Shown one piece after another: positions 12,505-30,822 of a stretch of DNA of 30,822 bases. The position numbers were made by a program, and so were the translations under genes. Numbering within the stretch: position 1 is the stretch's first letter; every line of letters starts with the position of its first letter. The stretch spans positions 1-30,822 of the forward strand of contig CAMYKY010000062.1 in the NCBI GenBank assembly GCA_947259165.1, written 5' to 3'. Below the pieces are notes generated by a model. It did not search any database. It was not told the DNA's origin and saw only the letters and a list, made by a program, of their open reading frames with translations. The stretch comes from an uncultured Acidobacteriota bacterium. Its GTDB lineage: Bacteria; Acidobacteriota; Vicinamibacteria; Marinacidobacterales; SMYC01.

Positions 12505-12528
12505 GGGGGGCGTCTTCGGGCGCCCCCC
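12505..12528 (+). terminator. stable 10-bp GC stem with UUCG tetraloop in leuB leader; candidate attenuator or sRNA 3' end
   Basis: GGGGGGCGUC-UUCG-GGCGCCCCCC followed by GCCCUCUUUCUGG, a weak, interrupted U-tract. Confidence 0.3.
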
Positions 12529-12562
12529 GCCCTCTTTCTGGGCGCACGTTCGCGCGCTAGTG

Positions 12563-12593
12563 CGGTTATCGGCGGTCGGTTATCGGTTATCGG
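12563..12593. promoter_or_regulatory. three closely spaced GGTTATCGG direct repeats 60-90 bp upstream of leuB
   Basis: GGTTATCGG occurs at 12564-12572, 12578-12586 and 12585-12593, immediately before a TTGACC hexamer (12596-12601). Confidence 0.35.
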
Positions 12594-12649
12594 TCTTGAC
12601 CTGATGTTAGCGTTCTCTCCTCGTCGGCTTTCGTGGTAATAATCTCGGC

Positions 12650-13714: not shown

Positions 13715-13822
13715 GCCGATTCCCCGTCAAGAGTCCTGACGCAAAGTCGCAAAGCTAGTCGAGCCAGATTGGGCCAGGGGCGCCCGTGACGGCGGAGTAC
13801 GGCTGTGGTTCCGTGGCGAATG

Positions 13823-14281: not shown

Positions 14282-14285
14282 TTTC

Positions 14286-16468: not shown

Positions 16469-16577
16469 TAACTCGTACGCTCCACGCCGTGGATTATTAC
16501 AGTTAAAACGTGTTTACCCCTGTCCTAATCGAGACTGTGCCGCTGCCCCGTAACGTCCCTGTTACTGAGAAAGCCAT

Positions 16578-16695
16578 CGTGCCCCCGCCCGTGCCCGTGA
16601 GCGTGCCCGAAACCCTAAAAGAACGCATGAGTCCGTCGCGAAAATCGGGCACGGGCACGCACGCGGGCACGGGCACGACGGGTGTGCGGGCACCG
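16578..16695. repeat. GGGCAC-repeat palindromic element, copy A (arms ~32 bp, conserved 36-nt loop)
   Basis: Left arm is CGTGCCCCCGCCCGTGCCCGTGAGCGTGCCCG (16578-16609). The loop is AAACCCTAAAAGAACGCATGAGTCCGTCGCGAAAAT. Right arm is CGGGCACGGGCACGCACGCGGGCACGGGCACG (16646-16677), with an extra GCGGGCAC to 16695. It lies in the divergent promoter region between the ECF sigma and the VOC gene. Copy B is at 25465-25559. Confidence 0.7.
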
Positions 16696-16808
16696 ACTTC
16701 GTCGGCGCCCGAACGTTGCCACACTCCTGACAGGACGGTGTCAGGAGTGGGGGCGTAGTCTTCGGGTGGCTCGGACAGGCCGGGCTGAAAAATCCTAGGA
16801 GACGCTAA

Positions 16809-17213
16809 ATGAATCCAAAGAAGCTCTTACCGATGTTTGTGACCGATAAGCTTGCCGAGACGAAAGCGTTTTATACAGAGAAGGCGGGCTTCACGATCAC
16901 GCATGATCTGGACGGCTATCTATCGGTTCACTATGGGGACGAAGACGGCCCCGAGCTCGCGTTCGCGGCATCAGAGACCGAAGTGATGGGGAAGTTGCCG
17001 CTTTTCCGCGGCGAGGGGATCATCGTGAGCATTCCGACACCGAACGCGGATCGCAAGGCGACGGAGATGGCGAGTCACGGTGTGACGCTCATTGGGGAGC
17101 CAGAGACCCGGCCGTGGGGTTGGCGGAGCTTCATGACCGCCGATCCGAACGGTGTGATCCTGGACTTCTTTCACGTACCGGCTGAGAATGCCGGTGCTGA
17201 TGCGACGGGCTGA
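16809..17213 (+). CDS. VOC/glyoxalase-bleomycin-resistance family protein
   Basis: 134 aa with AGGAG 8 nt upstream of the ATG and a typical paired beta-alpha-beta-beta-beta VOC length and composition. Family assignment is by resemblance only. Confidence 0.6.
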   Translation: MNPKKLLPMFVTDKLAETKAFYTEKAGFTITHDLDGYLSVHYGDEDGPELAFAASETEVMGKLPLFRGEGIIVSIPTPNADRKATEMASHGVTLIGEPETRPWGWRSFMTADPNGVILDFFHVPAENAGADATG

Positions 17214-17886
17214 TCGTCTTTTTCAAATCGTCCAGCTGCTGCGCCGCCGGCGGCTCACGACGGCGGCGCAGATTGCCGAGCGCCTCGAAGTTTCGGAGCG
17301 TACCGTCTACCGCGATATCCGCGACCTCGCTTTGTCCGGCGTTCCCGTGCAGGGGGAGGCGGGAGTCGGCTATCGACTTGGCAAGGACTTCGATCTGCCG
17401 CCAATGATGTTCAGCGTCGACGAGATTCAGGCACTCGTGCTCGGCGCGCGCATGGTCGAGAGCTGGGGGGATGAAGAGCTCAGAAGCGCAGCGCGCGCGG
17501 TGTTGACAAAGGTCGAGGCGGTCTTGCCGCCGTCGAAGCGGCATCGGGTGCAGGACACCGCACTCTTTTCGTTGTCGTTTCGAATCTCGCCTGAGGTCCG
17601 GGCGAGTGTCGGCACGTTGCGAAAGGCGATCGACGATCGCGTGAGAGTCCAACTGGATTACGCCGACGCGACCGGCCGACCGAGTGGTCGTACGGTGTGC
17701 CCCTTGGGTCTTTACTTCTGGGGTGCTGTGTGGACGCTAGGGGCATGGTGTGAGCTCCGTCAAGACTTCCGCAACTTTCGCTTGGATCGTATCGCTGAAG
17801 CCGTGTCCCTGGACGAGACTTTCGCCTACGAGTCGCCCCGAACCCTCGAAGATTTCATCCAATCAATGACTCGTGACGACCACTAA
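17200..17886 (+). CDS. YafY-family transcriptional regulator (N-terminal HTH + WYL domain)
   Basis: MRRADRLFQIVQLLRRRRLTTAAQIAERLEVSERTVYRDIRDL is the hallmark HTH of YafY/WYL regulators. A central WYL-type region follows. It overlaps the VOC gene by 14 bp. Confidence 0.75.
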   Translation: MRRADRLFQIVQLLRRRRLTTAAQIAERLEVSERTVYRDIRDLALSGVPVQGEAGVGYRLGKDFDLPPMMFSVDEIQALVLGARMVESWGDEELRSAARAVLTKVEAVLPPSKRHRVQDTALFSLSFRISPEVRASVGTLRKAIDDRVRVQLDYADATGRPSGRTVCPLGLYFWGAVWTLGAWCELRQDFRNFRLDRIAEAVSLDETFAYESPRTLEDFIQSMTRDDH

Positions 17887-17943
17887 CAGAGCAAAATCTT
17901 TTTGTGTGGGTAAATCCCAACGCACTCGTGTGGTGCGGAGCCG

Positions 17944-18987
17944 GTGCTCGAGATCACGGATTCCGTCGTCGGCCTCGCGTACGCTTTTCATGTCGTCCCC
18001 GACATGATGCGCAACGAAAAAGAAGGTACTGCCAGCCGCTCAGCGTTTCCCCTGAGCGCGCAGCAAACGAACCTTGCGCGCTGCGTGCTTCGGGAAGAGC
18101 CGGACTATCTCAACCACGCGCACCAGATAAACCCGAACACGGGTGTCAAAACCGTGATGCGTCTCGAGTCCGAGGAAGTTCAGCGGTTTCGCGCGGTGTG
18201 GGAGAGGCGGCCCGTTGGCTGCATTCGCTCAATGAATCGTGCGATCGCGCGGGTGAGGGCGCCTGAGCGGTCGGTGCGCTATCTTCTTGCGGCCTTCGAC
18301 TTGGAGGTTTTGATGGACCGCTCCAGCTCACCCGCTGCGAGCGATGACCTCGTTGGCATACCAGGCTATTTGAAGGACGGCTACACGGACCTTGGATTCT
18401 TTCCCTCTCCGAATCGACGGGAGAAGATCCTCGTCGACAAGGAGCGATTGAGCCGTCAGCTCGTTTCCTGCAAACGCCAGGCGATCGAGGGTCTCCACGA
18501 TGGGAAGGCTCCGGTAGAAGTTCTTCGAGCGCATCTTCAAGAGGTCGGTCGCGCGCTGCGTGAAAGTGTCGGCTACAAAGAAGGGGAGGTTGGCCCCCGC
18601 CGCTCCGACGAGACCGTATTGTTGTCGGATTGCGTCGAGCGGCGGTCGGTTGCGTGCCGGCATTTGGCGATGTTGATGCAGCTCCGGCTTCAGGAATGCG
18701 GTATTCCTTCGCGGCTGGCGAAGGGGGTCTTACGTCTGTACGGGTTGAAGGGGCGTCACGCGTGGAACCTCGTGCGTCACGCTGGATCCGTCGCGCTGGT
18801 GGATGTAACCTTTGGCGAAGACGACGGGCCGATGGTCATGGTGGGGGCGACCCTCGAAGAGGTCTACGCGCGCGCGAAGGATTTGAATCGTGTCTACTGC
18901 CCGAGCCCGGACACCGAGAACCACTATCAGATACGTTCAAGCAATCCGTCTCGTCGGGGCCAAAGCGAGCAACACCCGGCCTCCTAG
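17944..18987 (+). CDS. transglutaminase-like (papain-fold) cysteine protease superfamily protein
   Basis: GTG start with GGAG 5 nt upstream. The segment VACRHLAMLMQLRLQECGIPSRLAKGVLR..GRHAWNLVR..VALVDVT matches the transglutaminase-core Cys ... GIP.R ... HAW ... D pattern. Confidence 0.45.
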   Translation: MLEITDSVVGLAYAFHVVPDMMRNEKEGTASRSAFPLSAQQTNLARCVLREEPDYLNHAHQINPNTGVKTVMRLESEEVQRFRAVWERRPVGCIRSMNRAIARVRAPERSVRYLLAAFDLEVLMDRSSSPAASDDLVGIPGYLKDGYTDLGFFPSPNRREKILVDKERLSRQLVSCKRQAIEGLHDGKAPVEVLRAHLQEVGRALRESVGYKEGEVGPRRSDETVLLSDCVERRSVACRHLAMLMQLRLQECGIPSRLAKGVLRLYGLKGRHAWNLVRHAGSVALVDVTFGEDDGPMVMVGATLEEVYARAKDLNRVYCPSPDTENHYQIRSSNPSRRGQSEQHPAS

Positions 18988-19422
18988 GGTTCGTGCATAC
19001 CCATAGCACCGGTTCACGGGGTGTTTTCGCCCTAACGATGGGATCAAGGGCTTACGCCGCGGTACCAGGTGTTGCAGTTCGCGGCGAAGACGCCGATCGT
19101 CCTCGTGAATGATCAATCCGCGCTCGAGCGCGATAATGGCCTCGCGCCGCCGGCCGTGTGCGGCCAGTGCCCGGCCGAGATTCAAATACAAGACCCCGCT
19201 ACGCCGACCGTTCTTTTCGACAGCCTCCTCGCACAAACTGATGCTTTCTTCGTTGCGGCCGTGGGTAAACGCCAAAAGTAGCCCATAATACGAAATGTGA
19301 GCGGGATCCCGACTGCCGTCTTGTACGAGATGACCCAGCGACTTGGTGGCCATCGCGAGGCGCCCAGCACGATAGTCCTGAAGCGCCTGCTCGAAAATCC
19401 GTTCCCGTCGTTCAGCATCCAT
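18937..19422 (-). CDS. hypothetical TPR-like protein
   Basis: 161 aa with GGGAG 8 nt upstream of the ATG and helical-repeat-like segments (YYGLLLAF.., LYLNLGRALAAHGRRREAIIALERGL). Its 3' end overlaps the convergent transglutaminase-like gene by ~50 bp, so the boundaries are uncertain. Confidence 0.3.
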   Translation of the reverse strand: MDAERRERIFEQALQDYRAGRLAMATKSLGHLVQDGSRDPAHISYYGLLLAFTHGRNEESISLCEEAVEKNGRRSGVLYLNLGRALAAHGRRREAIIALERGLIIHEDDRRLRRELQHLVPRRKPLIPSLGRKHPVNRCYGYARTLGGRVLLALAPTRRIA

Positions 19423-19606
19423 GGCACGTCTCCCACGGCGGTATTCAGTTTTTTGGATACGTAAGACTAAAACGACTCGTGCCTTGAATCAAGTGCGGGA
19501 GGTCCTTGACACGGATGAGATGAGTGCGGTACTCGTAGGGTCCCCAAGGTCGAATGTGTCCGTCGGGCACGTGGCATGAATTCATTTTTTCCAACATTGC
19601 GAGGAC

Positions 19607-19816
19607 ATGATGGACCGCAACTCCTTTATCGAAGCGCTCGAGGGTTGCATCGGAAGCGCGACAGGGCGTCATTACCCGAACATCGAGTGGGCGAAGATGA
19701 CGGACCGGGGACTCATTGAATGTGCGGAGCTGGTGCGCGATTTGCTGGAAAAGCGATTGCACGCCCTCGACAAGATGCTCACCGCTCCCGAGCCCCGTGA
19801 CGGGAAGATCCATTGA
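19607..19816 (+). CDS. small hypothetical protein (69 aa) translationally coupled to PilZ gene
   Basis: GAGGA 4 nt upstream of the ATGATG start. Its stop overlaps the TTG start of the PilZ ORF (TTGA). Confidence 0.35.
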   Translation: MMDRNSFIEALEGCIGSATGRHYPNIEWAKMTDRGLIECAELVRDLLEKRLHALDKMLTAPEPRDGKIH

Positions 19817-20172
19817 TTGATAGGCGTTTTCCGCGCGTCCCGGTCAAAGTGCCCATGTTCATCACCGTTGGAGGTGGGCGACTTTACGAGAAAGCGGTCG
19901 AGATAGAGTGCCGCGACATCTCCGGCGGCGGGCTGTCGTTCGAGACCCTGCGAGAAATTCCTCTCGACGCCAAGTCGAAGATCGTCATGGGACGTCTGGG
20001 AAACCTGCCCCCGTCCGCGATCATCGAAGGGCGCGTCGTTTACCGACACAAGCAGGATGGCGCCGATCTCTTCACTGTGGGCGTCGAATTCCTCGACTTC
20101 GTCAATACGAGTCGCGAAGAGCTTCTCGAGCGCATCCAGTCGTGGCAGGATGACGCGGCGACCCTGAGGTAA
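19813..20172 (+). CDS. PilZ-domain (c-di-GMP-binding) protein
   Basis: RRFPRV (RxxxR) and DISGGGLSF (DxSxGG) PilZ motifs. 119 aa from a TTG start. Confidence 0.7.
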   Translation: MIDRRFPRVPVKVPMFITVGGGRLYEKAVEIECRDISGGGLSFETLREIPLDAKSKIVMGRLGNLPPSAIIEGRVVYRHKQDGADLFTVGVEFLDFVNTSREELLERIQSWQDDAATLR

Positions 20173-20338
20173 CCACGGAAACACGGAGAACACGGAGGTC
20201 TGACGGAGACGCACCGTAAGGGTTCTCTGTGTCGCGTATGGATACCGATGACTCCGTTGCTACCTCCGACGCTCCTGGTAACGCGGCCGATCGTGCATCG
20301 GGATTCCACGGCGTCCGGTGCGGTATCATGCACCCACC

Positions 20339-21571
20339 ATGAAGAAGTTTTTCCTCTCTGGGGTGGCGTTGGTGCTCGGGGTAGGTCTTTATTTCGGCGT
20401 TCGGGCGATCGACAGGATGGCCGTTTCCTACTTGACCGGGCCGCGTCGGGTTGTTGGTGAGGGGTCCTGGGGCGAGAAGATTCCGAGTGACGGGCCAGTC
20501 CCCGGAACTGCTTTTTTGGGGTTCATGGGACCCTCAGAAGATCCGCCCGGTCTGCGCATCATGCGACCGCGAGAAACAGGACAGGAGCTCGGTCTCCTAC
20601 GCGGCGATGTCGTAACGGAGGTCGACGGCGAGACATTTCGTTCGGGCCGTGAGCTCATGGAGCATCTGGTTCAAAACCATACAGCTGGGGATTCCGTTTC
20701 CATTACCGCGGTGACAGCCGGCGAGCCGCCGCGGACGATGTCGATGAAGCTACGTGCTCTGTTGCGGCATCCCGGAGACTTGGGCCTCGCTTACGAAGAC
20801 GTGGAGATGCAATCGGACAGTGGCAACGTTCTTCGTGGCTGGTTCGTTCCTCCGCCGGAGCGAAGCGACGGTCGGGTCGGCATCTTCGTGCACGGTGCGT
20901 ACTCCTCGAGGTATCAAGCGCTCGAAAACGGCGGGAAGTATTGGTACCCCCGTGGCTACGGTTTGTTGACGATGGACTTGAGTGGACACGGCTCGAGCGG
21001 AGGTGACTACGTTACGTATACCGTCAAGGAGCGCCAGGACGTGGCGGCTATGGTGCGGTGGGCCCGCACCCATCCGGCGATCGATCCTCGACGGGTGGTT
21101 GTGTTCGGCACCTCGAATGGCGCCGCGTCAGTCATCTATGCCGCCGCCGCGGATGGCGAGATTCCCGGGCTCGCTCTCGATGCGCCCTACGGGAACTTGT
21201 GGGATGCGGCGGGCTCGATGTTGAGCGCGCGTGGCGGGAGCGCGATCCTGCGCTACCCCTTATTCCTCGCAGTGTGGTGGCGTACGGGTATCGATCTCGG
21301 AGAGGTACGGCCGGCAGATGTCATCACCGATATCCAAGCCCCGGTACTCTTCATTCATGGGGACGCTGACCGGCGGGTTCCGCTGACTCATTCAGAAAGC
21401 ATGCACGCCGCTCGCGAACAAGCGGGTCTTCCCAGCGAGCTCTGGGTTTTGCCCGGTGGTGAGCACGGCTTTGACAACTACCCACCGGAAGGGATTTTCT
21501 GGAGTCGGGTTCTCGATTTCTTCGATCGAGCGCTCGGAGGTCCTCCGCCCGAGTGGGACCTGTCCTCCTGA
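20339..21571 (+). CDS. membrane-anchored/secreted PDZ-domain alpha/beta-hydrolase (serine peptidase/esterase-like)
   Basis: N-terminal hydrophobic signal/anchor MKKFFLSGVALVLGVGLYF and a PDZ-like segment GLLRGDVVTEVDGETF. The hydrolase triad elements are GTSNG (GxSxG), HGDADRRV and GGEHGF. An alternative start is at 20318. Confidence 0.7.
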   Translation: MKKFFLSGVALVLGVGLYFGVRAIDRMAVSYLTGPRRVVGEGSWGEKIPSDGPVPGTAFLGFMGPSEDPPGLRIMRPRETGQELGLLRGDVVTEVDGETFRSGRELMEHLVQNHTAGDSVSITAVTAGEPPRTMSMKLRALLRHPGDLGLAYEDVEMQSDSGNVLRGWFVPPPERSDGRVGIFVHGAYSSRYQALENGGKYWYPRGYGLLTMDLSGHGSSGGDYVTYTVKERQDVAAMVRWARTHPAIDPRRVVVFGTSNGAASVIYAAAADGEIPGLALDAPYGNLWDAAGSMLSARGGSAILRYPLFLAVWWRTGIDLGEVRPADVITDIQAPVLFIHGDADRRVPLTHSESMHAAREQAGLPSELWVLPGGEHGFDNYPPEGIFWSRVLDFFDRALGGPPPEWDLSS

Positions 21572-21579
21572 AGACGATC

Positions 21580-22302
21580 ATGGCTATCAAAGATCTCCTG
21601 ACTTCCGAGGGGCGCCTCAAATTTCGCATCCAACGCAAGACGAAAACGCTCCTGGAGCGTTACGCGCAACACGATGCGCGTATGGAGGCCGCGGACATAT
21701 TGCGTGAGATTGGAACGCCCGAGGCTATCTTCGGACTCGCGCGCCGGTTCTCGTCGACGTCCGAGAATCTTGGTACCGATCAAGAAGAAAAAAAGCGTAT
21801 CCAGGACGTACTCGTTGCGTTCGGCGACGATGCCGTCGAACCGTTGCAGCGCTACATCCGAAGCTACGACAAGGTGACTTGGGCTATCGATGCGTTGAAG
21901 ACGCTCCAACCGCGAGACGCGCTCATCCCGTTCCTGTTCGAGGTGTTGAGCGAGGGAGATCCTGTCCGGATACGAGGGGAAAAAGCTCACCAGATTCTCA
22001 AAGCGCTCGAGAATCTCGACGACCCCAACGTCGTCGATGGGGTCATGCCTTGTCTGTCGAGCTCTGATGACACGGTGCGTATCGCCGCCATCGAATGCCT
22101 CGAGGTGTACGGAGACGAGCGTGCTCGGGAACCGTTGCTCGAAACGCTCGTGAACCCCGACGAGGACTCGATGCGGGTGAAGATGAAAATTGGTGAAGCG
22201 CTCGAAAAGCTCGAGTGGGACGTCAAGGGCTACCGCAAACGAGTCGAAAGCGCTCTTCCCGAGCAGTTCCGGGTGACGTCTAAAGGTCGGATTACGCACT
22301 AG
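21580..22302 (+). CDS. HEAT/PBS-lyase-type repeat protein
   Basis: Repeated DP.VR..A..AL..LGD..A...L helical units, e.g. DPNVVDGVMPCLSSSDDTVRIAAIECLEVYGDERAREPLLETL. The start is taken at MAIKDL. The track ORF starts 27 nt earlier, inside the upstream gene. Confidence 0.55.
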   Translation: MAIKDLLTSEGRLKFRIQRKTKTLLERYAQHDARMEAADILREIGTPEAIFGLARRFSSTSENLGTDQEEKKRIQDVLVAFGDDAVEPLQRYIRSYDKVTWAIDALKTLQPRDALIPFLFEVLSEGDPVRIRGEKAHQILKALENLDDPNVVDGVMPCLSSSDDTVRIAAIECLEVYGDERAREPLLETLVNPDEDSMRVKMKIGEALEKLEWDVKGYRKRVESALPEQFRVTSKGRITH

Positions 22303-22497
22303 TGCTCGGACCCGCTGATCCTGTCGTAAATTCCGGGTCCTTTTCGGCGCTGCCGGCGTTGCGAGCATCGTTGCAGTTCGGCCTACGGCCTATCCCTCCG
22401 CTCGACAAGCTCGCTGCGGAAGGCGGCAAATATCTCTTGGCAGCGCCAAAAATGACCTCGCAATTTACCGACAGGATCAGCGGGTCCAAGCACTAGC
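22297..22497. repeat. ~200-bp unit bounded by 28-bp terminal inverted repeats (ACTAGTGCTCGGACCCGCTGATCCTGTCG ... CGACAGGATCAGCGGGTCCAAGCACTAG)
   Basis: The left TIR (22297-22325) and right TIR (22469-22497) are reverse complements with one mismatch. The unit starts at the HEAT gene stop codon. It is either a MITE-like element or a long structured RNA. Confidence 0.5.
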
Positions 22498-22518
22498 GCC
22501 GCTGTGCCACTAAGAAAG

Positions 22519-22660
22519 TTAACGCAAAGGCGCCAAGGTGCAGAGACGCAAAAAAAGAGCCGTCGTCGGCGCACAATGCAACCACGCACCGCCGAGATCG
22601 AGATCCCAACGCCCCCGTTTGTGCTGGATGGACGTCCGCCCCTTTGCGTTTTATGTTCTT
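22519..22660. repeat. second, more degenerate copy of the CGCAAAG-heptad palindromic element
   Basis: TTAACGCAAAGGCGCCAAGGTGCAGAGACGCAAAAAAAG (22519-22556) is ~85% identical to the left arm at 3331-3365. A remnant right arm CCCCTTTGCGTTTTATG lies at 22637-22655. It is upstream of the SSF transporter gene. Confidence 0.5.
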
Positions 22661-22689
22661 AGCACTCCATTTGCGGACTTCGTATTAGC

Positions 22690-24102
22690 GTGAACATCCC
22701 CGTTTCGACGGTCCTCGTTCTTCTCCTCTACCTCGCAGCCGTCACCGCATTTGGCTCCTACCTGGGTCGTCGGCGCAAATCCGTCGACGACTACTTTCTC
22801 GCCGAGCGCAGCGTTCCGTGGTGGGCGATCGCCGCGTGCGTCGTCGCCACCGAAACGAGTGTCCTGACCTTTACGAGTGTTCCCGGCTTTGCATTCACCG
22901 GGGATTGGTCGTTTCTTCAACTCGCGATCGGCTACGTGATCGGTCGCATTCTCATCGCAGCCCTTCTGATCCCGGCGTTTTTCAAGGGCCACGTCTTCAC
23001 GTCCTACGAGCTACTCAAGAATCGCTTTGGACCGTCGGTGCGCAGTGTTGCCGCGGCAGTGTTTCTCGTCTCCCGAACGCTCGCCGACGGCGTCCGCCTC
23101 CACGCGGCGGCGCTGGTGGTGGCGATCGCGATCGGCGTGCCCGAGATTTATTGCATCCTCGTGCTCGCGGCGGTGATGATCGTCTACACCGAGGAGGGGG
23201 GTGTCAAAGCCACCATCTGGACGGACGTGGTTCAGATGTTCGTCTATGTCGCTGGCGCTTTCGTCGTGCTCGGAGCGGTCGTGCGTGTCATTCCCGATGG
23301 CTCGATTAGCGCTGCGATGGCGGCGGCAGCCGATGCCGACAAGCTGCGTGTTTTTGTGCCGACGCTCGATTTGAGTGTGACTTATAGCTTGGGCGCGGGC
23401 GTCATCGGGGGAATGTTTCTCACTATCGCGACCCATGGCACGGACCACTACCTCGTCCAGCGTCTCCTGGTGGCGCGAAGCGCTCGGGAGGCGAGTGCCG
23501 GTTTGGTGCTGTCTGGCTTTCTGGTGATGGCACAGTTCGTTTTGTTTTTGTTCATCGGAACGCTTCTGTGGAGTTACTACGGCGGGAGGGAATTCGCGCG
23601 CGGCGACGACATCTTGCCGACGTTCATTGCGGAACAGCTCCCGGGGCCACTGCTGGGGTTCATTCTCGCCGCCGTTGTGGCCGCGGCACTCTCACCGTCG
23701 CTGAATAGCCTCGCCTCGACTACGTTGAAGGACTTCTATATTCCGTACATCGATGCGAACGTCAGCGAACGACGCCAGATCCAGCTCGGCCGAGTCTTCA
23801 CCATTTTCTGGGGTGTGGCGCAGATGGGCGTCGCCATCTTCGCGCAGCGCGCCTCTTCCGCGCTCGAGGCGGGCCTCGCGGTGTTGTCGCTTGCGTCCGG
23901 ACCCACGGTCGGGGCGTTCCTGCTAGCGGTTATCAGTCGGCGAGCGAGCTCACTCGGAGTGCTCGTCGGTATGTTCGCAGGGCTGTTGGCGCCCTTTCTC
24001 GCGAACCAAGTGACGCCCGTGGCCTGGACTTGGAACGTTTTCATCGGGAGCATGACGACGTTTACCGTCGGATGTCTCGTGAGTCGCTACGGCTCGAAGT
24101 AA
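22690..24102 (+). CDS. sodium:solute symporter family (SSF) transporter
   Basis: 470 aa from a GTG start, with ~12-13 hydrophobic helices. The N-terminal pattern LAERSVPWWAIAACVVATETSVLTFTSVPGFAF is characteristic of SSF (PutP/PanF-like) transporters. Confidence 0.75.
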   Translation: MNIPVSTVLVLLLYLAAVTAFGSYLGRRRKSVDDYFLAERSVPWWAIAACVVATETSVLTFTSVPGFAFTGDWSFLQLAIGYVIGRILIAALLIPAFFKGHVFTSYELLKNRFGPSVRSVAAAVFLVSRTLADGVRLHAAALVVAIAIGVPEIYCILVLAAVMIVYTEEGGVKATIWTDVVQMFVYVAGAFVVLGAVVRVIPDGSISAAMAAAADADKLRVFVPTLDLSVTYSLGAGVIGGMFLTIATHGTDHYLVQRLLVARSAREASAGLVLSGFLVMAQFVLFLFIGTLLWSYYGGREFARGDDILPTFIAEQLPGPLLGFILAAVVAAALSPSLNSLASTTLKDFYIPYIDANVSERRQIQLGRVFTIFWGVAQMGVAIFAQRASSALEAGLAVLSLASGPTVGAFLLAVISRRASSLGVLVGMFAGLLAPFLANQVTPVAWTWNVFIGSMTTFTVGCLVSRYGSK

Positions 24103-25082
24103 GGAAGGACCTCCTCGCCGAGCATCCTAATGGCGTCGTGTTCATGGACGCCGTGTGGAGTCCCGAGCTCGAAGACGTCGACGCCCGCGTCGAAGAGCCG
24201 TTCCATCTGTGCAATGACGTCGCGAGGTGTTCCGAAGACGCAGAATCGGCGCAGTGTTTCCGGGGAAATCGCAGCCGCTGCAGCGTCAGTGTCGCCGCGC
24301 GCGAGCGCTACCTCGATGCGTCCGAGCTCGTTCTCGGGCACGGTGTAGGTCGGATCGAGTCTACCGGCGACGGCGATGTACATTGCGACGTTGCGCCGGG
24401 CGACGACTTCGGCAATGCGCGGATCGCGATCGACCACGGTGACAGCTCCGTAAATCAAGTGGATGGACGCGGGGTCGCGCCCGGCGCGCTGTGCGCCCTG
24501 ATTGACGTAGCCGCGAAAGGTCGCTGCGCTATCGGGGTTCGCGCACCCGCCGATCTTGACCATGTCGGCGATCGCTCCGCCCAGCCCGAGGGTGCGGGGG
24601 CCCCAGCCACCGATAAGGACGGGTAGGCGGCGATTTGGGATCGGAAAACGAAGGTAGGCGTCGGCAGATGCGCTGAAGAGCTCTCCGGAGTAAGGAGTTC
24701 GATCGCCTTCAAGGAAACGTTGTACCAACTCGACCATTTCGCGGATCGCAACGAGAGGTTTTGGTTGAGCCACCGCAATCGCGTCGAAAAACGCGCCACG
24801 TCCGACCCCGAGATACGCGCGGCCGCGACTCAATTCGTCGAGCATCGCGAGGTGGCCTGCTACCAACACTGGGTGAGCGAGGTAGGGATTGACGACGGCA
24901 GGGCCGACGAGGGGAGCGGAAGTGAGCTCTGCGAAATGAAACAAGGCCGGCCAGGGAGGTTGAAAAAACAAATCCTGATAAACGCTTACAGCATTGAACT
25001 CGTAGAGATCGACGAGCGCCGCTAACTCGCGATACTCATCGACGGACTTGTCACTTTGGAAGGAAACCGCGAAGCGGGCCAT
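24087..25082 (-). CDS. LLM-class (luciferase-like) flavin-dependent oxidoreductase
   Basis: 331-aa TIM-barrel-like sequence with LLM family features (N-terminal MARFAVSFQ.., ...VLIGGWGPRTLGL.., ...CVFGTPRDVIAQMERL). The 3' end overlaps the convergent SSF gene by 16 bp. Confidence 0.65.
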   Translation of the reverse strand: MARFAVSFQSDKSVDEYRELAALVDLYEFNAVSVYQDLFFQPPWPALFHFAELTSAPLVGPAVVNPYLAHPVLVAGHLAMLDELSRGRAYLGVGRGAFFDAIAVAQPKPLVAIREMVELVQRFLEGDRTPYSGELFSASADAYLRFPIPNRRLPVLIGGWGPRTLGLGGAIADMVKIGGCANPDSAATFRGYVNQGAQRAGRDPASIHLIYGAVTVVDRDPRIAEVVARRNVAMYIAVAGRLDPTYTVPENELGRIEVALARGDTDAAAAAISPETLRRFCVFGTPRDVIAQMERLFDAGVDVFELGTPHGVHEHDAIRMLGEEVLPYFEP

Positions 25083-25400
25083 TTAAGTCAATTCGTTCTT
25101 GACGAGCTCGACTTTCTCGAGTCGCTCGATGCGCATGACGAGGCCTTCGTCCGGGTCGGGGCACACGACGGTGCTATCGGAAGCGAGCCAGTCGTTCTCA
25201 TCGAGCTCGCGCTGCTTCGCGGCCAGAAGCGGCAACACCGCGCCGAGGGCGTAGATGCAAAAATGCCGACCCTCGGGAAGAATGAGCTGGGCGCTATTGC
25301 GAAGCTCGAACCAATCTCCGACCTTCATACCGCACACCGATCTGCCGCGAATCTCGGTCACCGTAACCCGAAGGTTATAGAGCGAAAAGGAGCTGGTCAT
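25083..25400 (-). CDS. small (105 aa) Cys/His-containing protein of unknown function, co-transcribed with LLM oxidoreductase
   Basis: AGAGG 10 nt upstream of the ATG, and the gene abuts the LLM start with no gap. Conserved-looking C..H..C...C spacing. It may belong to a TIGR04076-like small-protein family, but I cannot verify this. Confidence 0.45.
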   Translation of the reverse strand: MTSSFSLYNLRVTVTEIRGRSVCGMKVGDWFELRNSAQLILPEGRHFCIYALGAVLPLLAAKQRELDENDWLASDSTVVCPDPDEGLVMRIERLEKVELVKNELT

Positions 25401-25464
25401 GGGTGAAGACCTCTAAGACGAGACTGGGGGAGGAGCCGCTAAGAAGCACATCGCTACCGACCCT

Positions 25465-25559
25465 CGTGCCCGTGTCCGCATGCGTGCTCGAAAAACCTCC
25501 AGAAAACGCATGGATCCGTCGAGGAATCGGGCACGGGCACGCACGCGGGCACGGGCACG
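25465..25559. repeat. GGGCAC-repeat palindromic element, copy B
   Basis: The right arm CGGGCACGGGCACGCACGCGGGCACGGGCACG (25528-25559) is identical 32/32 to copy A. The loop AAAAACCTCCAGAAAACGCATGGATCCGTCGAGGAAT is ~75% identical to copy A, and the left arm CGTGCCCGTGTCCGCATGCGTGCTCG has diverged. It lies between the methyltransferase stop and the small-protein/LLM operon start. Confidence 0.7.
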
Positions 25560-25587
25560 ATTTCCGTTGCCTTTGACGGAAGAGACA

Positions 25588-26376
25588 TTAAACAGCTGCT
25601 TTCCTGCAGAAGGCCATCAGGTGCCATCCCAGGGGGCGGACCCAGGATTTTGGCAGGGTGTTGAATGTCCCGACGAACACGTTGTTGAAGGCGAAGCCTT
25701 TCCAGCCGCCGTGGAGGCGCGATTTCACCGGGAAACGCTCCGGCACGATGCGGACGTCGTCAAAGACGGAAAGGAGAGCGCGGTACTCGGCGATCGAGTA
25801 CTTTTTCAGCACGGGCGCGTCCTCGTGTTCGAGCTCGACGTGCATGAGCTTCGACAGGCCGTTGAGCCAGGATATCCGGTTGTAGACCATGAAGATGGCG
25901 ACTCCGTTATTGCGCACAACACGCCGACATTCCGCGATCATCTTGTCGGCAGCGGCAGTGTATTGGAGCACGCCATGGCCGTAGACGACGTCGAACGAGT
26001 CGTCCTCGAACGGTAGAGCTTCACCGTTGGCGAGCTCGAGATTCATGCTGACCCCGGCGTGGCGCGCGTTTTTGTCCGCGAGTGCCAAAGCCGTCTCGGA
26101 GATGTCGACGCCGGTGACGTCCGCACCCCCTTTGGCGAAACGGACGAGATCGGTACCGATACCGCAGCCGACCTCGAGGAGTTTCTTTCCTGAGTAGCCA
26201 TTGAAGTCGACGACGTTCGGTAGATAGCGAAGTTTGTCGAATCGGTACTCGTCGAGGTCCGCAAAAAACTCGGCCGTTCCCGGCGCATGCGGGGTCATCT
26301 CCAAGTCGTGGATGCGCTCGTTCCAGTAGTGCTGGACCTGTCCGAGCAGGCTGTCGGCATCGACCCCAGTTTCCAT
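25588..26376 (-). CDS. class I SAM-dependent methyltransferase
   Basis: Motif I LLEVGCGIGTDL, the acidic loop DISETAL and motif post-I DVVYGHGVLQY. 262 aa. Confidence 0.8.
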   Translation of the reverse strand: METGVDADSLLGQVQHYWNERIHDLEMTPHAPGTAEFFADLDEYRFDKLRYLPNVVDFNGYSGKKLLEVGCGIGTDLVRFAKGGADVTGVDISETALALADKNARHAGVSMNLELANGEALPFEDDSFDVVYGHGVLQYTAAADKMIAECRRVVRNNGVAIFMVYNRISWLNGLSKLMHVELEHEDAPVLKKYSIAEYRALLSVFDDVRIVPERFPVKSRLHGGWKGFAFNNVFVGTFNTLPKSWVRPLGWHLMAFCRKAAV

Positions 26377-26409
26377 TTCGCTTGAGCTCTCGTCGACTCT
26401 CTTTCGTGG

Positions 26410-27792
26410 GTGCGAGCCGCTATTATAGTGCGAATGAAACGCGACATCCCCGCGCTGGCACAGCGTGAGTTCGACCTCGTGGTTGTCGGCGCGGGAGTTT
26501 ATGGTGCCGCGACCGCCTGGGACGCATCGCTTCGCGGGTTATCGGTCGCGCTCATCGACAAGGGCGACTTCGGAAGCGGCACGTCGTTCAATAACCTCAA
26601 GACGATTCATGGCGGGCTCCGCTATCTTCAACACGCCGACTTCGCCCGCATGCGGGAGTCGGTGCGGGAGCGCCGCAATCTGATGCGGATCGCGCCCCAT
26701 CTCGTCCATCCTCTTCCGTTTCTCGTGCCGACCTACCGCGGGAGTTTCGTGAAGAGCCGAACGGTCATGCGTGCGGCGTTGTGGATGAACGATCTCGTGA
26801 GCTGGGACCGTAACCGTATCGCTGATCGTCAGAAACACCTGCCGGCGGGCAGGGCGTTGAGCCGCGCTGAATGTCTCAGGCGCGCGCCTGGACTCGATTC
26901 GCGGAATCTCACGGGAGCTGTTGTTTGGCACGATGCCCAGATGCACAACTCGGATCGTCTGACGCTATCGTTCGTGCTTTCGGCGGCCGAGCAAGGTGCT
27001 GTAGTCGCGAATTTCGTCGAGGCGACGGAGTTGATCCGCGCCGACACGCGTGTCGTCGGCGTGCGGGCTCGAGATGTCGTTTCCAACGAGGACGGCGTCG
27101 AAGTCCGTGCGAAGCTGGTTGTGAATGCGTCGGGACCTTGGGTCGATAGTCTCGCGGATTCCCGGCGTCGCTTATTCCATTTTTCGAAGGCGTTGAACCT
27201 GGTGACGCGACGAATCGATAGCGATATCGCCATCGGCGTGACGAGCCGGCGACCGCACCGAGACCGTGACGCGCTGATCGACACGGGCGGTCGCTTCCTC
27301 TGTTTGATCCCGTGGCGCGACGTGACCATGATCGGGACGGCCCACGCGCCGTATACCGGCACCGCCGATGATCTCGAGGTGACCGAACAAGACATTCAGG
27401 ATCTGCTCGACGATGTCAACGAAGCGTACCCCAAGGCGAAGCTCGTTCGGCAGGACGTGCGTCTCGTTCATCGAGGCCTGCTACCCAGGGCATCTGAGGG
27501 GGGAAATGGTAGCGGGGTCACGTTGCTCAAGAGCTATCGCCTCGACGACCACGTCGAGGGACTCCTGTCGATCGTGGGCGTGAAGTATACGACGGCACGC
27601 GACGTCGCCGAAAAGGCCGTCGACCGCGCCATGGCGCTCATCGGAAAAACACCGGTGGCCTCCCGCTCGGCCGAGACGCCCGTGGTCGGCGGAGACATAG
27701 AGAGCTTCGATGACTTCCTCGCCGGGGCTCACGGCGATGCGCCAAGCGATGTCCTGCGTCATCTCGTCTACACGTATGGGAGCCGCTATCCC
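26410..27792 (+). CDS. GlpD/GlpA-family FAD-dependent glycerol-3-phosphate dehydrogenase-like oxidoreductase, apparently 3'-disrupted
   Basis: FDLVVVGAGVYGAATAWDASLRGLSVALIDKGDFGSGTSFNNLKTIHGGLRYL is the diagnostic GlpD N-terminus. There is no RBS, and GTG 26410 or ATG 26434 could be the start. About 460 aa of plausible protein run up to ..RHLVYTYGSRYPVI. Beyond that the frame degenerates into Ser/Arg low-complexity sequence with no nearby stop, reading antisense through the ABC permease gene. Confidence 0.65.
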
Positions 27793-28067
27793 GTGATCTG
27801 CTCGATCCCTACTTCGAGCTCCTGGTCGAGCTGCTGCGAGAGGAGCCTGCCTACACCTTCGGCGAGGACCAGGAGATCTACGACAAGCTGTTCGAGCTCG
27901 GCATCGCCAACTGGTCGAAGGCGACGGACATCACCTTTCCCCAGGACCTCGTCTTCATCGACCGTTCCCTGGGCGGCCACTTCGGCAACCTCGCTCGCCT
28001 CCGCGCCACCGGCCCGTGGCGGCGGTTGGTGCGCTACTACGCCGAGGCGGCGCTGGCCCAGGCCTAG
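27783..28067 (+). pseudogene. orphan C-terminal coding fragment in a different frame and codon regime (..DLLDPYFELLVELLREEPAYTFGEDQEIYDKLFELGIANWSKATDITFPQDLVFIDRSLGGHFGNLARLRATGPWRRLVRYYAEAALAQA*)
   Basis: Protein-like translation with GC3 near 90% begins exactly where the GlpD-like frame degenerates. Upstream the same frame is Arg-rich junk following a TGA at 27711. It ends at TAG 28065-28067. Confidence 0.3.
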
Positions 28068-28098
28068 GGCCTCGCAGTCGTGTGCGGCCGGCGCATGC

Positions 28099-29457
28099 TC
28101 AGGCGTAGCGCATCCACCGCCAGAGCTCCTTCAACGTCGGCTTCTTGCCGTACATCAGGATCCCCGTGCGGTAGACCCGGGCCGAGAGCCAGATCATGCC
28201 GAGGGTGAAAGCGGTGGTCAGCAGATAGCCCAGGGCGACCTGCCAGAACGGTGGCGTCTTGATGGCGATGCGCAGCATCATCAGGAGCGGCGTGAAGAAC
28301 GGGATCAGCGAGGCGACTACCGAGACGGTCGAGTCGGGGTCGTTGATCACCATCCAGAAGAAAAGCACCGGCGCCACCAGGAAGATGACGATGAAGCCGG
28401 CCCACTGCTGCGCCTCCTGGACGTTGTTGAAGGCCGAGCCGATGGCGGCGTAGACGGTGGAGAAGACGAAGAAGCCGAGCAGGAAGAGCAGCACGAAGTG
28501 CACGATCAGCCCGGCCGAGATGGACGGCACGTCGACGTCCTCGGGGATCCAGGCCATGGCCGAGACGACGCCCGGCAGGGTGAAGGCCACCATGGTGCCC
28601 AGCCAGACCGCCAGCTGGGTGAGGGCGGCGCAGCAGATGCCGAGCAGCTTGCCCATCAGCAGCTCGAACGGCCGCACCGTCGAGACCACCACCTCGACGA
28701 TGCGCGACGACTTCTCCTCGATGACGCCGTTCATCACCTGCTGGCCGTAGAAGACCAGCACCATGTAGAGCAGAAAGAACAGGGCGTAGGCGAGGATCAG
28801 ACCGGCCTCGGCGCCTTCCTCCTCGCCGCCCTCCTCGGTGATGCGGAAGGTGGTCATGCGCACCCGGCGGGCGAGCTCGCGGATCTGCTCCGGGTCGAGC
28901 CCGGCATTGCGGTAGCGGTGCTCGCGGGCGACCGCCGTCAAGGCATCCTGCAGCCGGTCCTGGGTGATGAAGTTCGACACGCTCGCGGCGTGGTACTCGA
29001 CGCGGCTCGACTCCAGGGCGTCGCCGGCGATCCAGATCCAGGCGTCGAGCTCGCCCTCGAGGACGCGGCGGTTGAGCTCGGCCTGCTGCGCCTCGGGGTC
29101 CGCCGCCGCCGGCTCAACGGTCACCTCGAAACGGGCCGCTTCGAGCTGCCGCTCGAGCTGCTGCTCGAAGCCCTCGGTGCCGGGCTCAGCCTCGGCCTTG
29201 CCGGCCGTCAGCGCTGCGGGCGCCGCCGCTTCCGGCGCCGGCGCCAGCCGCGTCGCCAGCTCCGCGCCCAGCTCGCCGGTCCGATCGACCACCGCCACCC
29301 GGTGGGCCGAGACCGACTTGAACAGGAACAGCGTCGGCAGGATGCCGATGGCGGCGAGGAACAGCGGCAGCACGATGGTCGCCAGCCAGAAACCGAGCGA
29401 CTTCACCCGCGCGAGGTACTCGCGTTGCGCGACGACGAACGCCTGTCTAACGCGCAT
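28099..29457 (-). CDS. ABC-2 family transporter permease
   Basis: 452 aa with an N-terminal TM helix, a large extracytoplasmic loop and then 5 clustered TM helices, the typical ABC-2 exporter permease topology. It overlaps the upstream ATPase gene by 11 bp. Confidence 0.7.
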   Translation of the reverse strand: MRVRQAFVVAQREYLARVKSLGFWLATIVLPLFLAAIGILPTLFLFKSVSAHRVAVVDRTGELGAELATRLAPAPEAAAPAALTAGKAEAEPGTEGFEQQLERQLEAARFEVTVEPAAADPEAQQAELNRRVLEGELDAWIWIAGDALESSRVEYHAASVSNFITQDRLQDALTAVAREHRYRNAGLDPEQIRELARRVRMTTFRITEEGGEEEGAEAGLILAYALFFLLYMVLVFYGQQVMNGVIEEKSSRIVEVVVSTVRPFELLMGKLLGICCAALTQLAVWLGTMVAFTLPGVVSAMAWIPEDVDVPSISAGLIVHFVLLFLLGFFVFSTVYAAIGSAFNNVQEAQQWAGFIVIFLVAPVLFFWMVINDPDSTVSVVASLIPFFTPLLMMLRIAIKTPPFWQVALGYLLTTAFTLGMIWLSARVYRTGILMYGKKPTLKELWRWMRYA

Positions 29458-30388
29458 GGCGCTCCTCGCCGGCCGCGCCGCCGGTCCGTTCCGAGTCTCC
29501 TACCGCCTGGATGAAGATCTCCTCCAGCTCCGGCTCCTCGGAGCGGAACTCGTGCACGGTGACGGCTTCGAGCAGTCGCGGCAACACCTCGGCTCCGCTG
29601 GCGTCGTCCTCGAGCAGCAGCCTGGCGCCGTCGTCCTGGGCGATGGCCCGGGCCACGCCGGGCACGGCGGCCAGGCGGTCCAGGTTGCCACTGGCCACCA
29701 GCCGATAGGAGTTGCCGCCAAAGCGGCGCTTGATCGCCTTGAGCTCGCCGGCCAGCACCACCCGGCCGCGCGAGATGAGGCAGATCCGGTCGCACAGCTT
29801 GTCGGCCTGCTCCATGATGTGGGTGGAGAACAGCACCGCCCTGCCGTCGCGCCGGTATTCCGCCAGAAGGTCCTTGAACAAGCCCTGGTTGATCGGGTCG
29901 AGACCGGAGAACGGCTCGTCGAGGACCAGCAGGTCCGGCTTGTGGAGCACCGTGCCAACCAGCTGGATCTTCTGCTGCATGCCCTTCGAAAGCTCCTCGA
30001 CCTTCTTGCCGGCCCACTCCGATAGCTCGACCTTGTCCAGCCACTCCTCGATGGCGGGCACCATCCGGCGCTTCTTGGCGCCGTGCAGCCGGCCGAGGAA
30101 GACCAGGTGATCGGTGACCGTCATCTTGCGGTAGAGGCCGCGCTCCTCCGGCAGATAGCCCACCCGCAGCAGATCGTCGCGCTGGCGCGGGCGACCGAAG
30201 AACCGCACCTCGCCGGCATCCGGCGCGATGATGTCCATGATCATGCGGATGCTGGTCGTCTTGCCGGCCCCGTTGGGGCCCAGCAGGCCACAGATCGAGC
30301 CCGGTTCGACGGTCAGCGAGACCCCGTCGACGGCCCTGAAGTCGCCGTAGCTCTTGCGCACGGCGTCGAGTTCGAGCAGTGGGGTCAT
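29447..30388 (-). CDS. ABC transporter ATP-binding protein
   Basis: Walker A GPNGAGKTT, ABC signature LSKGMQQK, Walker B LLVLDEPFSGLD and an H-loop STHIM. Confidence 0.9.
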   Translation of the reverse strand: MTPLLELDAVRKSYGDFRAVDGVSLTVEPGSICGLLGPNGAGKTTSIRMIMDIIAPDAGEVRFFGRPRQRDDLLRVGYLPEERGLYRKMTVTDHLVFLGRLHGAKKRRMVPAIEEWLDKVELSEWAGKKVEELSKGMQQKIQLVGTVLHKPDLLVLDEPFSGLDPINQGLFKDLLAEYRRDGRAVLFSTHIMEQADKLCDRICLISRGRVVLAGELKAIKRRFGGNSYRLVASGNLDRLAAVPGVARAIAQDDGARLLLEDDASGAEVLPRLLEAVTVHEFRSEEPELEEIFIQAVGDSERTGGAAGEERHAR

Positions 30389-30519
30389 GGGCAGAGGTCG
30401 CGCGTACGGTCAGCCGCATCTTAGCGGGCCGCGACGCGTAGATTGCGGCAGTGCGAGGAGTGATCGGCTGAGGGATAATGCCTTTCCTCTGTGCGGCGGC
30501 CGCTTTTCCTCGACAGAAC

Positions 30520-30822
30520 GATGACCAGGCGAGCGATCGGAATTGGAGCGGCCGCCTGGCTGGCCTGGGCGGCGTTGGCCTGGGCCGCGGTCGAGGGTCG
30601 GGTGGTCAGTCGGCGCGGCACGGCGGTGGAGCACGCCCGGGTGGAGATGCCGGCCGGTGGCGTAGCGGTCTTCAGCGGCCCCGCCGGCACGTTCCGATTT
30701 CCGGAGACCGTGTCACCGCCGGCGCCGGTCGAGCTGGTGGTCAGCCACCCGCGCTTTGCCACCCGCACGGTGGCGGTGACGGAGGCCGGCCCGATCGAGA
30801 TCGTGCTGGCGGCCAAGCAGGA
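30520..30822 (+). CDS. 5' part of a secreted protein (signal peptide, then beta-rich domain), truncated by window end
   Basis: ATG at 30520. MTRRAIGIGAAAWLAWAALAWAAVEG has signal-peptide character (basic N-region, Ala/Leu/Trp core, AxA-like site). The frame stays open to the window edge with high GC3. It is absent from the ORF track because there is no stop in the window. Confidence 0.35.

What the first reader, a model, noticed from the sequence alone, without database searches (positions are those of the whole stretch)
27700..28100. Abrupt compositional and reading-frame junction: the GlpD-like gene loses its C-terminus exactly where GC3 jumps, and everything downstream is ~70% GC
Up to about nt 27790 the GlpD-like frame is protein-like with moderate GC3 (~75%). 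Within a few codons it becomes Ser/Arg junk with no stop. Simultaneously a different frame becomes a clean, very-high-GC3 (~90%) C-terminal peptide ending at 28067. In sampled 60-nt lines the sequence changes from ~60% to ~70% GC, and that composition persists through the ABC-2 exporter and the secreted-protein gene to the window end. This is the signature of a junction between DNA of two different origins: either a horizontally acquired high-GC block whose insertion truncated glpD, or an assembly chimera. A simple frameshift is less likely because the tail lacks the conserved GlpD C-terminal motifs (..EMA.T..DVL.RRT..) and has different codon usage.
Basis: seen in the sequence. Interest (0 to 1): 0.55.

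Follow-up and report, generated by a model that had tools for sequence, protein, structure and literature searches.

The report
Two genomes joined in one contig
At about base 27,780 the sequence switches from one soil bacterium's DNA to another's, cutting a gene on each side; this is most likely a metagenome assembly error, not biology.

Summary
Bases 1-27,779 are 60.0% GC with gene GC3 of 0.68-0.78. Bases 27,780-30,822 are 68.5% GC with GC3 of 0.90-0.95.

**Left side.** The GlpD-like gene (26434-27795) keeps 454 of about 540-550 codons and has lost most of its DAO_C domain. In every relative found, the same neighbourhood carries a full-length glpD followed by an MFS transporter gene.

**Right side.** The peptide ending at 28067 is not a GlpD tail. 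It is the last 95 residues of an ABC1/UbiB-type kinase. Window 27776-30822 is 99.8% identical to contig CALZJC010000036.1 of a Thermoanaerobaculia MAG. There the kinase is intact (446 aa) and the contig continues past both ends of the match.

**The join.** It sits at the only place in 13 kb of that contig that resembles glpD, a 20-nt stretch with a 12-14-nt shared core. No tRNA, integrase, repeat or mobile-element feature is present. The missing gene halves are nowhere in the window.

**Verdict.** This is a join between two genomes, mediated by a short shared sequence. It is most likely an assembly or library chimera (about 0.8). A real, very recent transfer by microhomology-mediated illegitimate recombination is not excluded (about 0.1). 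A frameshift and plain contig concatenation are rejected. Interest is low, except as a quality flag.

The parts
1..27779 (.). Left block: 60% GC DNA of an Acidobacteriota-like genome. It is syntenic with relatives L003-L007 up to the breakpoint.
   Evidence: GC is 0.600. blastn to L003-L007 covers window 16725-27799 in the same gene order: SSF transporter, luciferase-like, small ORF, methyltransferase, GlpD. Tetranucleotide distance to L003 is 0.0117 and to L007 0.0144.
26434..27795 (+). 3'-truncated GlpD-like gene (FAD-dependent glycerol-3-phosphate dehydrogenase/oxidase). It has 454 codons; about 86-96 C-terminal residues, including most of DAO_C, are missing.
   Evidence: Pfam finds PF01266 DAO (E 7.7e-46) and no PF16901. 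Homologues of 540-550 aa carry PF16901 and match 100% of the 454 aa at up to 87% identity. P0006 has DAO_C at residues 411-525. Homologues continue GSRYPEIL..., whereas the window reads GSRYPVICSIPTSS.
27780..27794 (.). Crossover interval. The shared core is GAGCCGCTATCC(CG), inside a 20-nt stretch (27780-27799) that is compatible with both parents.
   Evidence: Left relatives align up to 27799 and L001 from 27780. Ungapped identity to L008 starts at 27780. V454 (GTG, 27793-27795) is not among the six commonest residues at that column in 120 GlpD homologues. The L003 20-mer GAGTCGCTATCCGGAGATCT matches L008 once with <=3 mismatches, exactly here, against 0 expected.
27780..28067 (+). 5'-truncated ABC1/UbiB-type atypical kinase gene: the last 95 codons plus the stop. 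The first 351 codons, including the whole kinase domain, are missing.
   Evidence: The translation is identical to the C-terminus of the intact 446-aa protein at L008:7391-8731(-), which carries PF03109 ABC1 at residues 98-337. It is 93% identical to P0001, which follows an ABC1 fragment on L001. The tail alone has no Pfam hit.
27780..30822 (.). Right block: 68.5% GC DNA, 99.8% identical to Thermoanaerobaculia MAG contig CALZJC010000036.1. It runs to the end of the window.
   Evidence: blastn of window 27776-30822 against L008 7683-4636 gives 5 mismatches and one 1-nt gap. L008 and L024 continue beyond both ends of the match. Tetranucleotide distance to the rest of L008 is 0.0207.
28099..29457 (-). 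ABC-2 family transporter permease gene (452 aa), intact.
   Evidence: PF12698 at E 1.8e-48. The gene is at the same place in L008/L024, L001 and L009.
29447..30388 (-). ABC transporter ATPase gene (313 aa, DrrA-like C-terminal domain), intact.
   Evidence: PF00005 and PF13732. The exact protein is on record only on CALZJC010000036.1.
30522..30822 (+). 5' part of a TonB-dependent receptor gene. It runs off the end of the window.
   Evidence: The sequence is shown. In L024 the corresponding gene (708 aa; CarboxypepD_reg, Plug, TonB_dep_Rec) lies 133 nt from the ATPase gene, on the opposite strand.

Best explanation
The window is a chimeric contig. About 27.8 kb of one genome (about 60% GC, Acidobacteriota-like) is joined to about 3 kb of a different genome (about 69% GC, Thermoanaerobaculia). 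The join lies at a short stretch where the glpD gene of the first happens to resemble the ABC1-kinase gene of the second.

Shown here:
- The two sides have different parents.
- Each parental gene is intact in its own lineage.
- The breakpoint lies within 27780-27794.
- The join coincides with the only glpD-like 20-mer in the donor contig.

Inferred: the join was made in silico or in the library, not in a cell. The assembler, or a chimeric template molecule it trusted, stepped from one genome's path to the other's through the shared sequence. It then followed the second genome until the contig ended. The result is two out-of-frame gene stumps and no functional product.
For: - Composition changes at the breakpoint by about 10 sd in GC and about 18 sd in tetranucleotide distance. 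The right piece is compositionally indistinguishable from the rest of the Thermoanaerobaculia contig.
- On the left, relatives L002-L007 keep full-length glpD (540-550 aa with DAO_C), followed by an MFS gene in L003-L007. They align to the window only up to 27799.
- On the right, window 27776-30822 is 99.8% identical to CALZJC010000036.1, with 1,120 nt of perfect identity directly after the join. That contig continues leftward into the intact ABC1 kinase, an acid phosphatase gene and more. It also continues rightward past the window end.
- The join lies in a 20-nt overlap of the two homologies. The glpD 20-mer from L003 has a single <=3-mismatch match in 13.4 kb of L008, at the join, with 0 expected.
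- The fusion is out of frame. The missing gene halves are nowhere in the window.
- No tRNA, repeat or mobility gene is present.
- The foreign piece is a short terminal segment running to the window end.
- Inter-genome translocations were the most prevalent misassembly type in the CAMI benchmark metagenome assemblies (PMC9661791, read).
Against: - No reads, coverage or assembly graph are available, so the artefact itself is not demonstrated.
- The exact shared core inferred from relatives is only about 12-14 nt (at most about 20). That is shorter than the k-mers of common de Bruijn assemblers. A plain k-mer crossover therefore needs the unknown true left parent to share more than its relatives do, or needs a chimeric read.
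- Microhomology of this length is also what genuine illegitimate recombination leaves behind.
- The source contig and its true left parent were not found in any collection. It is not known whether the window is a whole contig.
Confidence: 0.8

Rival explanations
1. A real, very recent horizontal transfer. A 60%-GC Acidobacteriota cell took up chromosomal DNA of a co-resident Thermoanaerobaculia. It integrated at least 3 kb by illegitimate recombination at a 12-14-nt microhomology, destroying glpD and importing a kinase stump plus an intact ABC-2 exporter operon.
For: The join lies at a GC-rich microhomology, GAGCCGCTATCC(CG), flanked by imperfect similarity. By my own knowledge of homology-facilitated and double illegitimate recombination in naturally transformable bacteria, that is the junction those mechanisms leave; I did not read the papers listed. 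Both partners appear to be Acidobacteriota (names). Identity of 99.8% would fit a recent event.
Against: - No independent occurrence of the junction was found.
- There is no mobile-element, integrase or tRNA signature.
- The event would inactivate a gene that is intact and syntenic in all relatives examined, yet would have to be frequent enough in the population to be assembled.
- Only one boundary is visible, and the foreign part is a short terminal piece.
- The prior for inter-genome misassembly in complex metagenomes is much higher (PMC9661791).
Confidence: 0.12
2. A data-handling join: two separate contigs of one bin were concatenated end to end without a spacer. The two broken genes would then simply be contig ends.
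For: Both genes are cut, and the missing halves are absent from the window. The composition change is a clean step.
Against: Blind concatenation predicts no relation between the first bases of the right piece and the continuation of glpD. Here the 20 nt after 27779 match the glpD continuation of L003 at 17 of 20 positions, in register. That 20-mer occurs nowhere else in L008, with 0 of 200 shuffles giving any match. My own binomial estimate for a fixed register is about 5e-7.
Confidence: 0.05
3. A frameshift or local rearrangement within one genome: the tail is the real but divergent C-terminus of this oxidoreductase, or the missing parts lie nearby.
For: None beyond the adjacency of the two frames.
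Against: - The tail is identical to the C-terminus of an intact PF03109 ABC1 kinase. It has no DAO_C similarity.
- 120 GlpD homologues continue differently.
- tblastn finds no credible match to the GlpD C-terminus or the ABC1 N-terminus anywhere in the window. The best matches are a 23-residue stretch at E 0.049 and one at E 0.28.
- Composition differs on the two sides.
Confidence: 0.01

Closest known systems
Inter-genome translocation misassembly (chimeric contig) in metagenome assemblies, as defined by MetaQUAST and targeted by metaMIC, DeepMAsED and similar tools
   Same: The two flanks map to different genomes, each of which continues colinearly past the breakpoint. There is a step in composition and codon usage, genes are cut at the breakpoint, and a shared sequence lies at the join. 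The foreign part is a short terminal piece of the window. This was the most prevalent error class in the CAMI benchmark assemblies (PMC9661791).
   Different: Read-level hallmarks (clipped reads, discordant pairs, a depth step) could not be examined. The shared sequence inferred here (12-20 nt) is shorter than the usual assembler k-mers.
Foreign DNA acquisition by illegitimate recombination at microhomology (homology-facilitated or double illegitimate recombination after natural transformation)
   Same: The junction lies at a short GC-rich microhomology, no mobile-element machinery is present, and genes are broken at the junction.
   Different: There is no second junction, no anchor homology and no independent observation. 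The donor and recipient fragments show no sign of selection, and the fusion is out of frame and non-functional.
Genomic island with atypical GC content
   Same: A block of higher GC and different codon usage begins abruptly.
   Different: There is no integrase, tRNA target, direct repeats or mobility genes. The block starts inside a gene and itself begins with a gene fragment. It is nearly identical (99.8%) to ordinary chromosomal DNA of another lineage, in the same gene order.

Membership tests
Inter-genome chimeric contig (misassembly) | The two flanks align to different genomes or lineages, and each reference continues colinearly beyond the breakpoint | tested here: met
   Left relatives L002-L007 align up to 27799 and continue with the GlpD C-terminus, followed by an MFS gene in L003-L007. 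L008/L024 aligns from 27776 at 99.8% and continues upstream with the ABC1 N-terminus and further genes.
Inter-genome chimeric contig (misassembly) | Step change in composition and codon usage at the breakpoint, with each side matching its own reference | tested here: met
   GC is 0.600 against 0.685, and GC3 is 0.68-0.78 against 0.90-0.95. Tetranucleotide distance from right to left is 0.0535, and from right to the rest of L008 is 0.0207.
Inter-genome chimeric contig (misassembly) | Sequence shared by both parents at the breakpoint | tested here: met
   The two homologies overlap by 20 nt (27780-27799). The match of the glpD 20-mer in L008 is unique. The exact length shared by the true parents is unknown; 12-14 nt is inferred.
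Inter-genome chimeric contig (misassembly) | Read-level signature: clipped reads, discordant pairs, a depth step, no spanning long reads | not testable with these tools
   No reads or assembly graph are available. The source contig is not in the searched collections.
Horizontally acquired genomic island | Mobility or integration machinery (integrase, transposase), a tRNA or att target, flanking direct repeats | tested here: not met
   No tRNA was found in the window. No repeats lie at or around the junction. The right-side genes are an ABC1 stump, an ABC-2 permease, an ABC ATPase and a TonB-dependent receptor.
Horizontally acquired genomic island | Two boundaries inside the recipient genome | not testable with these tools
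   The window ends at 30822, still inside donor-type DNA.
Horizontally acquired genomic island | The same junction seen in independent genomes or assemblies | tested here: inconclusive
   The 60-mer across the junction has no exact match in genome contigs or metagenome contigs. The source itself is absent from these collections too, so absence is weak evidence.
GlpD-type FAD-dependent glycerol-3-phosphate dehydrogenase/oxidase (PF01266 + PF16901) | N-terminal FAD-binding DAO domain | tested here: met
   PF01266 at residues 14-351, E 7.7e-46. Identity to full-length homologues reaches 87%.
GlpD-type FAD-dependent glycerol-3-phosphate dehydrogenase/oxidase (PF01266 + PF16901) | C-terminal DAO_C domain (PF16901) | tested here: not met
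   No PF16901 hit in the window copy. It is present at residues 411-525 of P0006 and in almost all full-length homologues. The window copy stops matching at about residue 453. This is a truncated gene, not a functional member.
ABC1/UbiB atypical kinase (PF03109) | ABC1 kinase-like domain | tested here: not met
   The window holds only the last 95 residues and has no Pfam hit. The intact L008 protein has PF03109 at residues 98-337. No ABC1 N-terminus occurs anywhere in the window. This is a gene fragment.

The most novel reading that the evidence does not exclude
The junction is a real event caught almost in the act. A chromosomal fragment of a Thermoanaerobaculia bacterium, still 99.8% identical to the donor population, was integrated into the chromosome of a distantly related soil Acidobacteriota. 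Integration was by microhomology-mediated illegitimate recombination with no mobile element. It knocked out glpD and delivered an ABC-2 exporter operon. That would be a rare direct observation of transformation-type gene flow between uncultivated soil lineages.
Probability: 0.1. Interest if true: 0.45.

Novelty: not a real feature. Interest (0 to 1): 0.1.

Why it matters
The main value is as quality control. The last 3 kb of this window should not be attributed to the organism that owns the first 27.8 kb. The 1,026-codon open frame, the "truncated GlpD" and any "GlpD-kinase fusion" should not be annotated or interpreted. The ABC-2 exporter operon would be contamination if the contig is binned.

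If read data showed instead that the junction is genuine, it would document very recent gene flow, independent of mobile elements, between two uncultivated soil Acidobacteriota lineages. That would be of moderate interest.

Tried and rejected
- **Exact-protein look-ups of window genes.** I tried the ABC-2 permease, methyltransferase, 105-aa ORF, luciferase-like protein and the 1,026-aa read-through ORF. None is on record, so neither the source contig nor a near-identical left parent could be recovered. Only the ATPase was found, and only on the Thermoanaerobaculia MAG contig.
- **Junction searches.** The junction 60-mer gave no hit in genome contigs or metagenome contigs. A conserved 26-mer just right of the junction gave none in metagenome contigs.
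- **Literature.** A search for the MAG name, to learn the assembler used, found nothing.
- **Mobile-element and ncRNA explanations.** No tRNA or tmRNA, no meaningful direct or inverted repeats around the junction, and no Rfam family in the window.
- **Frameshift or local rearrangement.** Rejected, because the tail is an ABC1 kinase C-terminus and the missing halves are absent.
- **Blind concatenation of contigs.** Rejected because of the in-register 20-nt overlap.
- **Taxon names for the closest complete-genome GlpD homologues.** None could be obtained. The class of the left side remains "Acidobacteriota-like", based on the names.
- **Not run.** I ran no further search on left-side taxonomy, because it would not change the verdict.
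Full report
**1. What is in the sequence**

The window changes character at about 27,780.
- GC is 0.600 for 1-27795 and 0.685 for 27796-30822. No 3-kb window on the left exceeds 0.619 (mean 0.599, sd 0.009).
- GC3 is 0.68-0.78 in nine genes on the left, including the last 100 codons of the GlpD-like gene (0.78). It is 0.90, 0.95 and 0.92 in the three coding regions on the right.
- The strand-symmetrised tetranucleotide distance from the right piece to the left is 0.0535. Left 3-kb pieces differ from the rest of the left by 0.0212 +/- 0.0018, with a maximum of 0.0252.

The GlpD-like frame starts at 26434. It is protein-like up to ...LVYTYGSRYP and then turns into Ser/Arg-rich text. It runs without a stop to 29514. 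I infer this is because it lies antisense to a gene with GC3 of 0.95.

A second frame, with codons from 27780, gives EPLSRDLLDPYFELL...AEAALAQA and stops at 28065-28067.

**2. The left side**

The 454-residue GlpD-like product has the DAO domain (PF01266) but no DAO_C (PF16901).

Its homologues are 540-550 aa long and carry PF01266 plus PF16901. They match 100% of the 454 residues at up to 87% identity. The few that are named are called Acidobacteriota or Vicinamibacteria MAG proteins. In P0006, DAO_C spans residues 411-525, so the window copy is cut inside that domain.

The contigs carrying the closest homologues (L003-L007) have the same gene order as window 16725-27799: SSF transporter, luciferase-like (in L007), small ORF, methyltransferase, glpD. 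In all of them glpD is full length and is followed by an MFS transporter gene.

**3. The right side**

The tail peptide has five homologues. The best, P0001 (93% identity), lies directly after a 332-aa PF03109 (ABC1) fragment on a 242-kb, 70% GC contig (L001). That contig also carries the ABC-2 permease, the ABC ATPase and the TonB-dependent receptor.

A search of species-representative genomes with the ABC-2 permease found CALZJC010000036.1. This is a 21.8-kb contig of the MAG "Thermoanaerobaculia bacterium FO_M_Acidobacteriota_08.1" (GCA_945787525.1; loci L008 and L024).

Window 27776-30822 is 99.8% identical to that contig, with 5 substitutions and a 1-nt gap at 27780. The first substitution is at 28900, so 1,120 nt directly after the join are identical.

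The MAG contig continues on both sides of the match. Upstream it holds the rest of an intact 446-aa ABC1 kinase (PF03109 at residues 98-337), then an acid phosphatase gene and more. Downstream it holds the full TonB-dependent receptor.

The last 95 residues of that kinase are identical to the window's tail. The tail is therefore a 5'-truncated ABC1 kinase gene, not a GlpD C-terminus. Compositionally, the right piece sits within the MAG contig's own range (distance 0.0207).

**4. The breakpoint**

Left-side relatives align up to 27799. Right-side relatives align from 27780 (ungapped) or from 27776 (with a 1-nt gap). The 20 nt GAGCCGCTATCCCGTGATCT are therefore compatible with both parents:
- In the glpD frame they read (G)SRYPVI.
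- In the ABC1 frame they read EPLSRDL.

GlpD homologues read GSRYPEIL. Val is not among the six commonest residues at position 454 in 120 homologues. The left-derived sequence therefore most likely ends before 27795, and the exactly shared core is about 12-14 nt, GAGCCGCTATCC(CG). This length is an inference, because the true left parent was not found.

The glpD 20-mer of L003 (GAGTCGCTATCCGGAGATCT) has exactly one match with <=3 mismatches in the 13.4 kb of L008, on either strand. That match is the junction. None of 200 shuffles gave any match. The join is therefore mediated by sequence similarity. It is not a blind end-to-end concatenation.

**5. What is not there**

- No tRNA or tmRNA.
- No direct or inverted repeats of note around the junction.
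- No Rfam family.
- No integrase or transposase among the right-side genes.
- No credible match to the missing GlpD C-terminus or the missing ABC1 N-terminus anywhere in the window. The best tblastn matches have E 0.049 and 0.28.
- No frame continuity: the two stumps are out of frame with each other, so no fusion protein is encoded.
- No exact match to the junction 60-mer in the two large contig collections. The source contig is not there either.

**6. Explanation**

Shown: the window joins DNA of two different genomes at a short shared sequence, and each side is intact in its own lineage.

Inferred: the join is an artefact. It would be an inter-genome translocation misassembly, or a chimeric library molecule accepted by the assembler. 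Four points favour this over a real event:
- The foreign piece is a short terminal segment running to the window end.
- It is ordinary chromosomal DNA in donor gene order, starting in mid-gene.
- It would break a conserved, syntenic gene.
- Inter-genome translocations were the most prevalent misassembly type in the CAMI benchmark metagenome assemblies (PMC9661791).

I put this at about 0.8.

The main rival is a genuine, very recent transfer by illegitimate recombination at a microhomology. It is not excluded, and I put it at about 0.1. A 12-14-nt shared core is short for a k-mer crossover, and it is exactly what such recombination leaves. Only reads, the assembly graph or PCR can decide.

**7. 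Comparison with known things**

The window behaves like a textbook inter-genome chimeric contig. Three of the four defining features I listed were tested and met: different references on the two flanks, a composition step, and a shared sequence at the join. The read-level feature could not be tested.

It fails the tests for a genomic island, having no integration machinery and no repeats.

The GlpD-like gene fails the DAO_C criterion and the kinase stub lacks the ABC1 domain. Both are fragments, not functional family members.

**8. Verdict**

The junction is most likely not a biological feature. Interest is low (0.1), apart from flagging the last 3 kb as foreign to the rest of the contig.

Noticed in passing
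window 12108-12649: A 540-nt AT-rich gap between two genes: a 367-aa ORF with no Pfam hit (11004-12107, -) and an isocitrate/isopropylmalate dehydrogenase gene (12650-13714, +). The 12001-12500 window is 49% GC against a 60% background. The gap ends with a strong GC-rich hairpin (GGGGGGCGTCTTCGGGCGCCCCCC, about 12505-12530). No Rfam family matches. It could hold an undescribed small RNA or a long leader.
   Followed up: partly
window 725-12107 (- strand): A run of large same-strand genes. It comprises an AAA ATPase (582 aa), a PspA/IM30-like protein (395 aa; 33.2 bits, just below the Pfam cut-off of 33.9) and a 1,798-aa protein with DUF3686 ("ATPase involved in DNA repair", E 1e-212), DUF7902 and AAA domains. 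These are followed by 687-aa and 367-aa proteins with no Pfam hit. It looks like an uncharacterised multi-ATPase operon and was not examined further.
   Followed up: no
L001 10384-12364; L009 about 7407-9008: In two relatives of the right side, about 1.6-2 kb lies between the ABC1 kinase gene and the ABC-2 permease gene. In L001 this stretch holds a PIN/PhdYeFM toxin-antitoxin pair and small genes. In the window and in L008 the two genes are only 31 nt apart. This is an indel polymorphism of a toxin-antitoxin cassette within the lineage.
   Followed up: no
L001 9019-10360 and 13781-14725: On contig ERZ25039508:contig_29998 the ABC1 kinase is called as two pieces (332 + 119 aa) and the ABC ATPase as two pieces (154 + 83 aa). 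The orthologues in L008 are single genes. This suggests frameshift errors in that assembly, not real pseudogenes.
   Followed up: no
window 26410-29514 (+): The longest ORF near the junction (1,034 aa from the GTG at 26410, or 1,026 aa from the ATG at 26434) is an artefact. It consists of 454 real GlpD codons followed by about 570 stop-free codons, lying out of frame over the kinase stub and antisense to a gene with GC3 of 0.95. A gene caller could report it as a giant fusion protein.
   Followed up: yes
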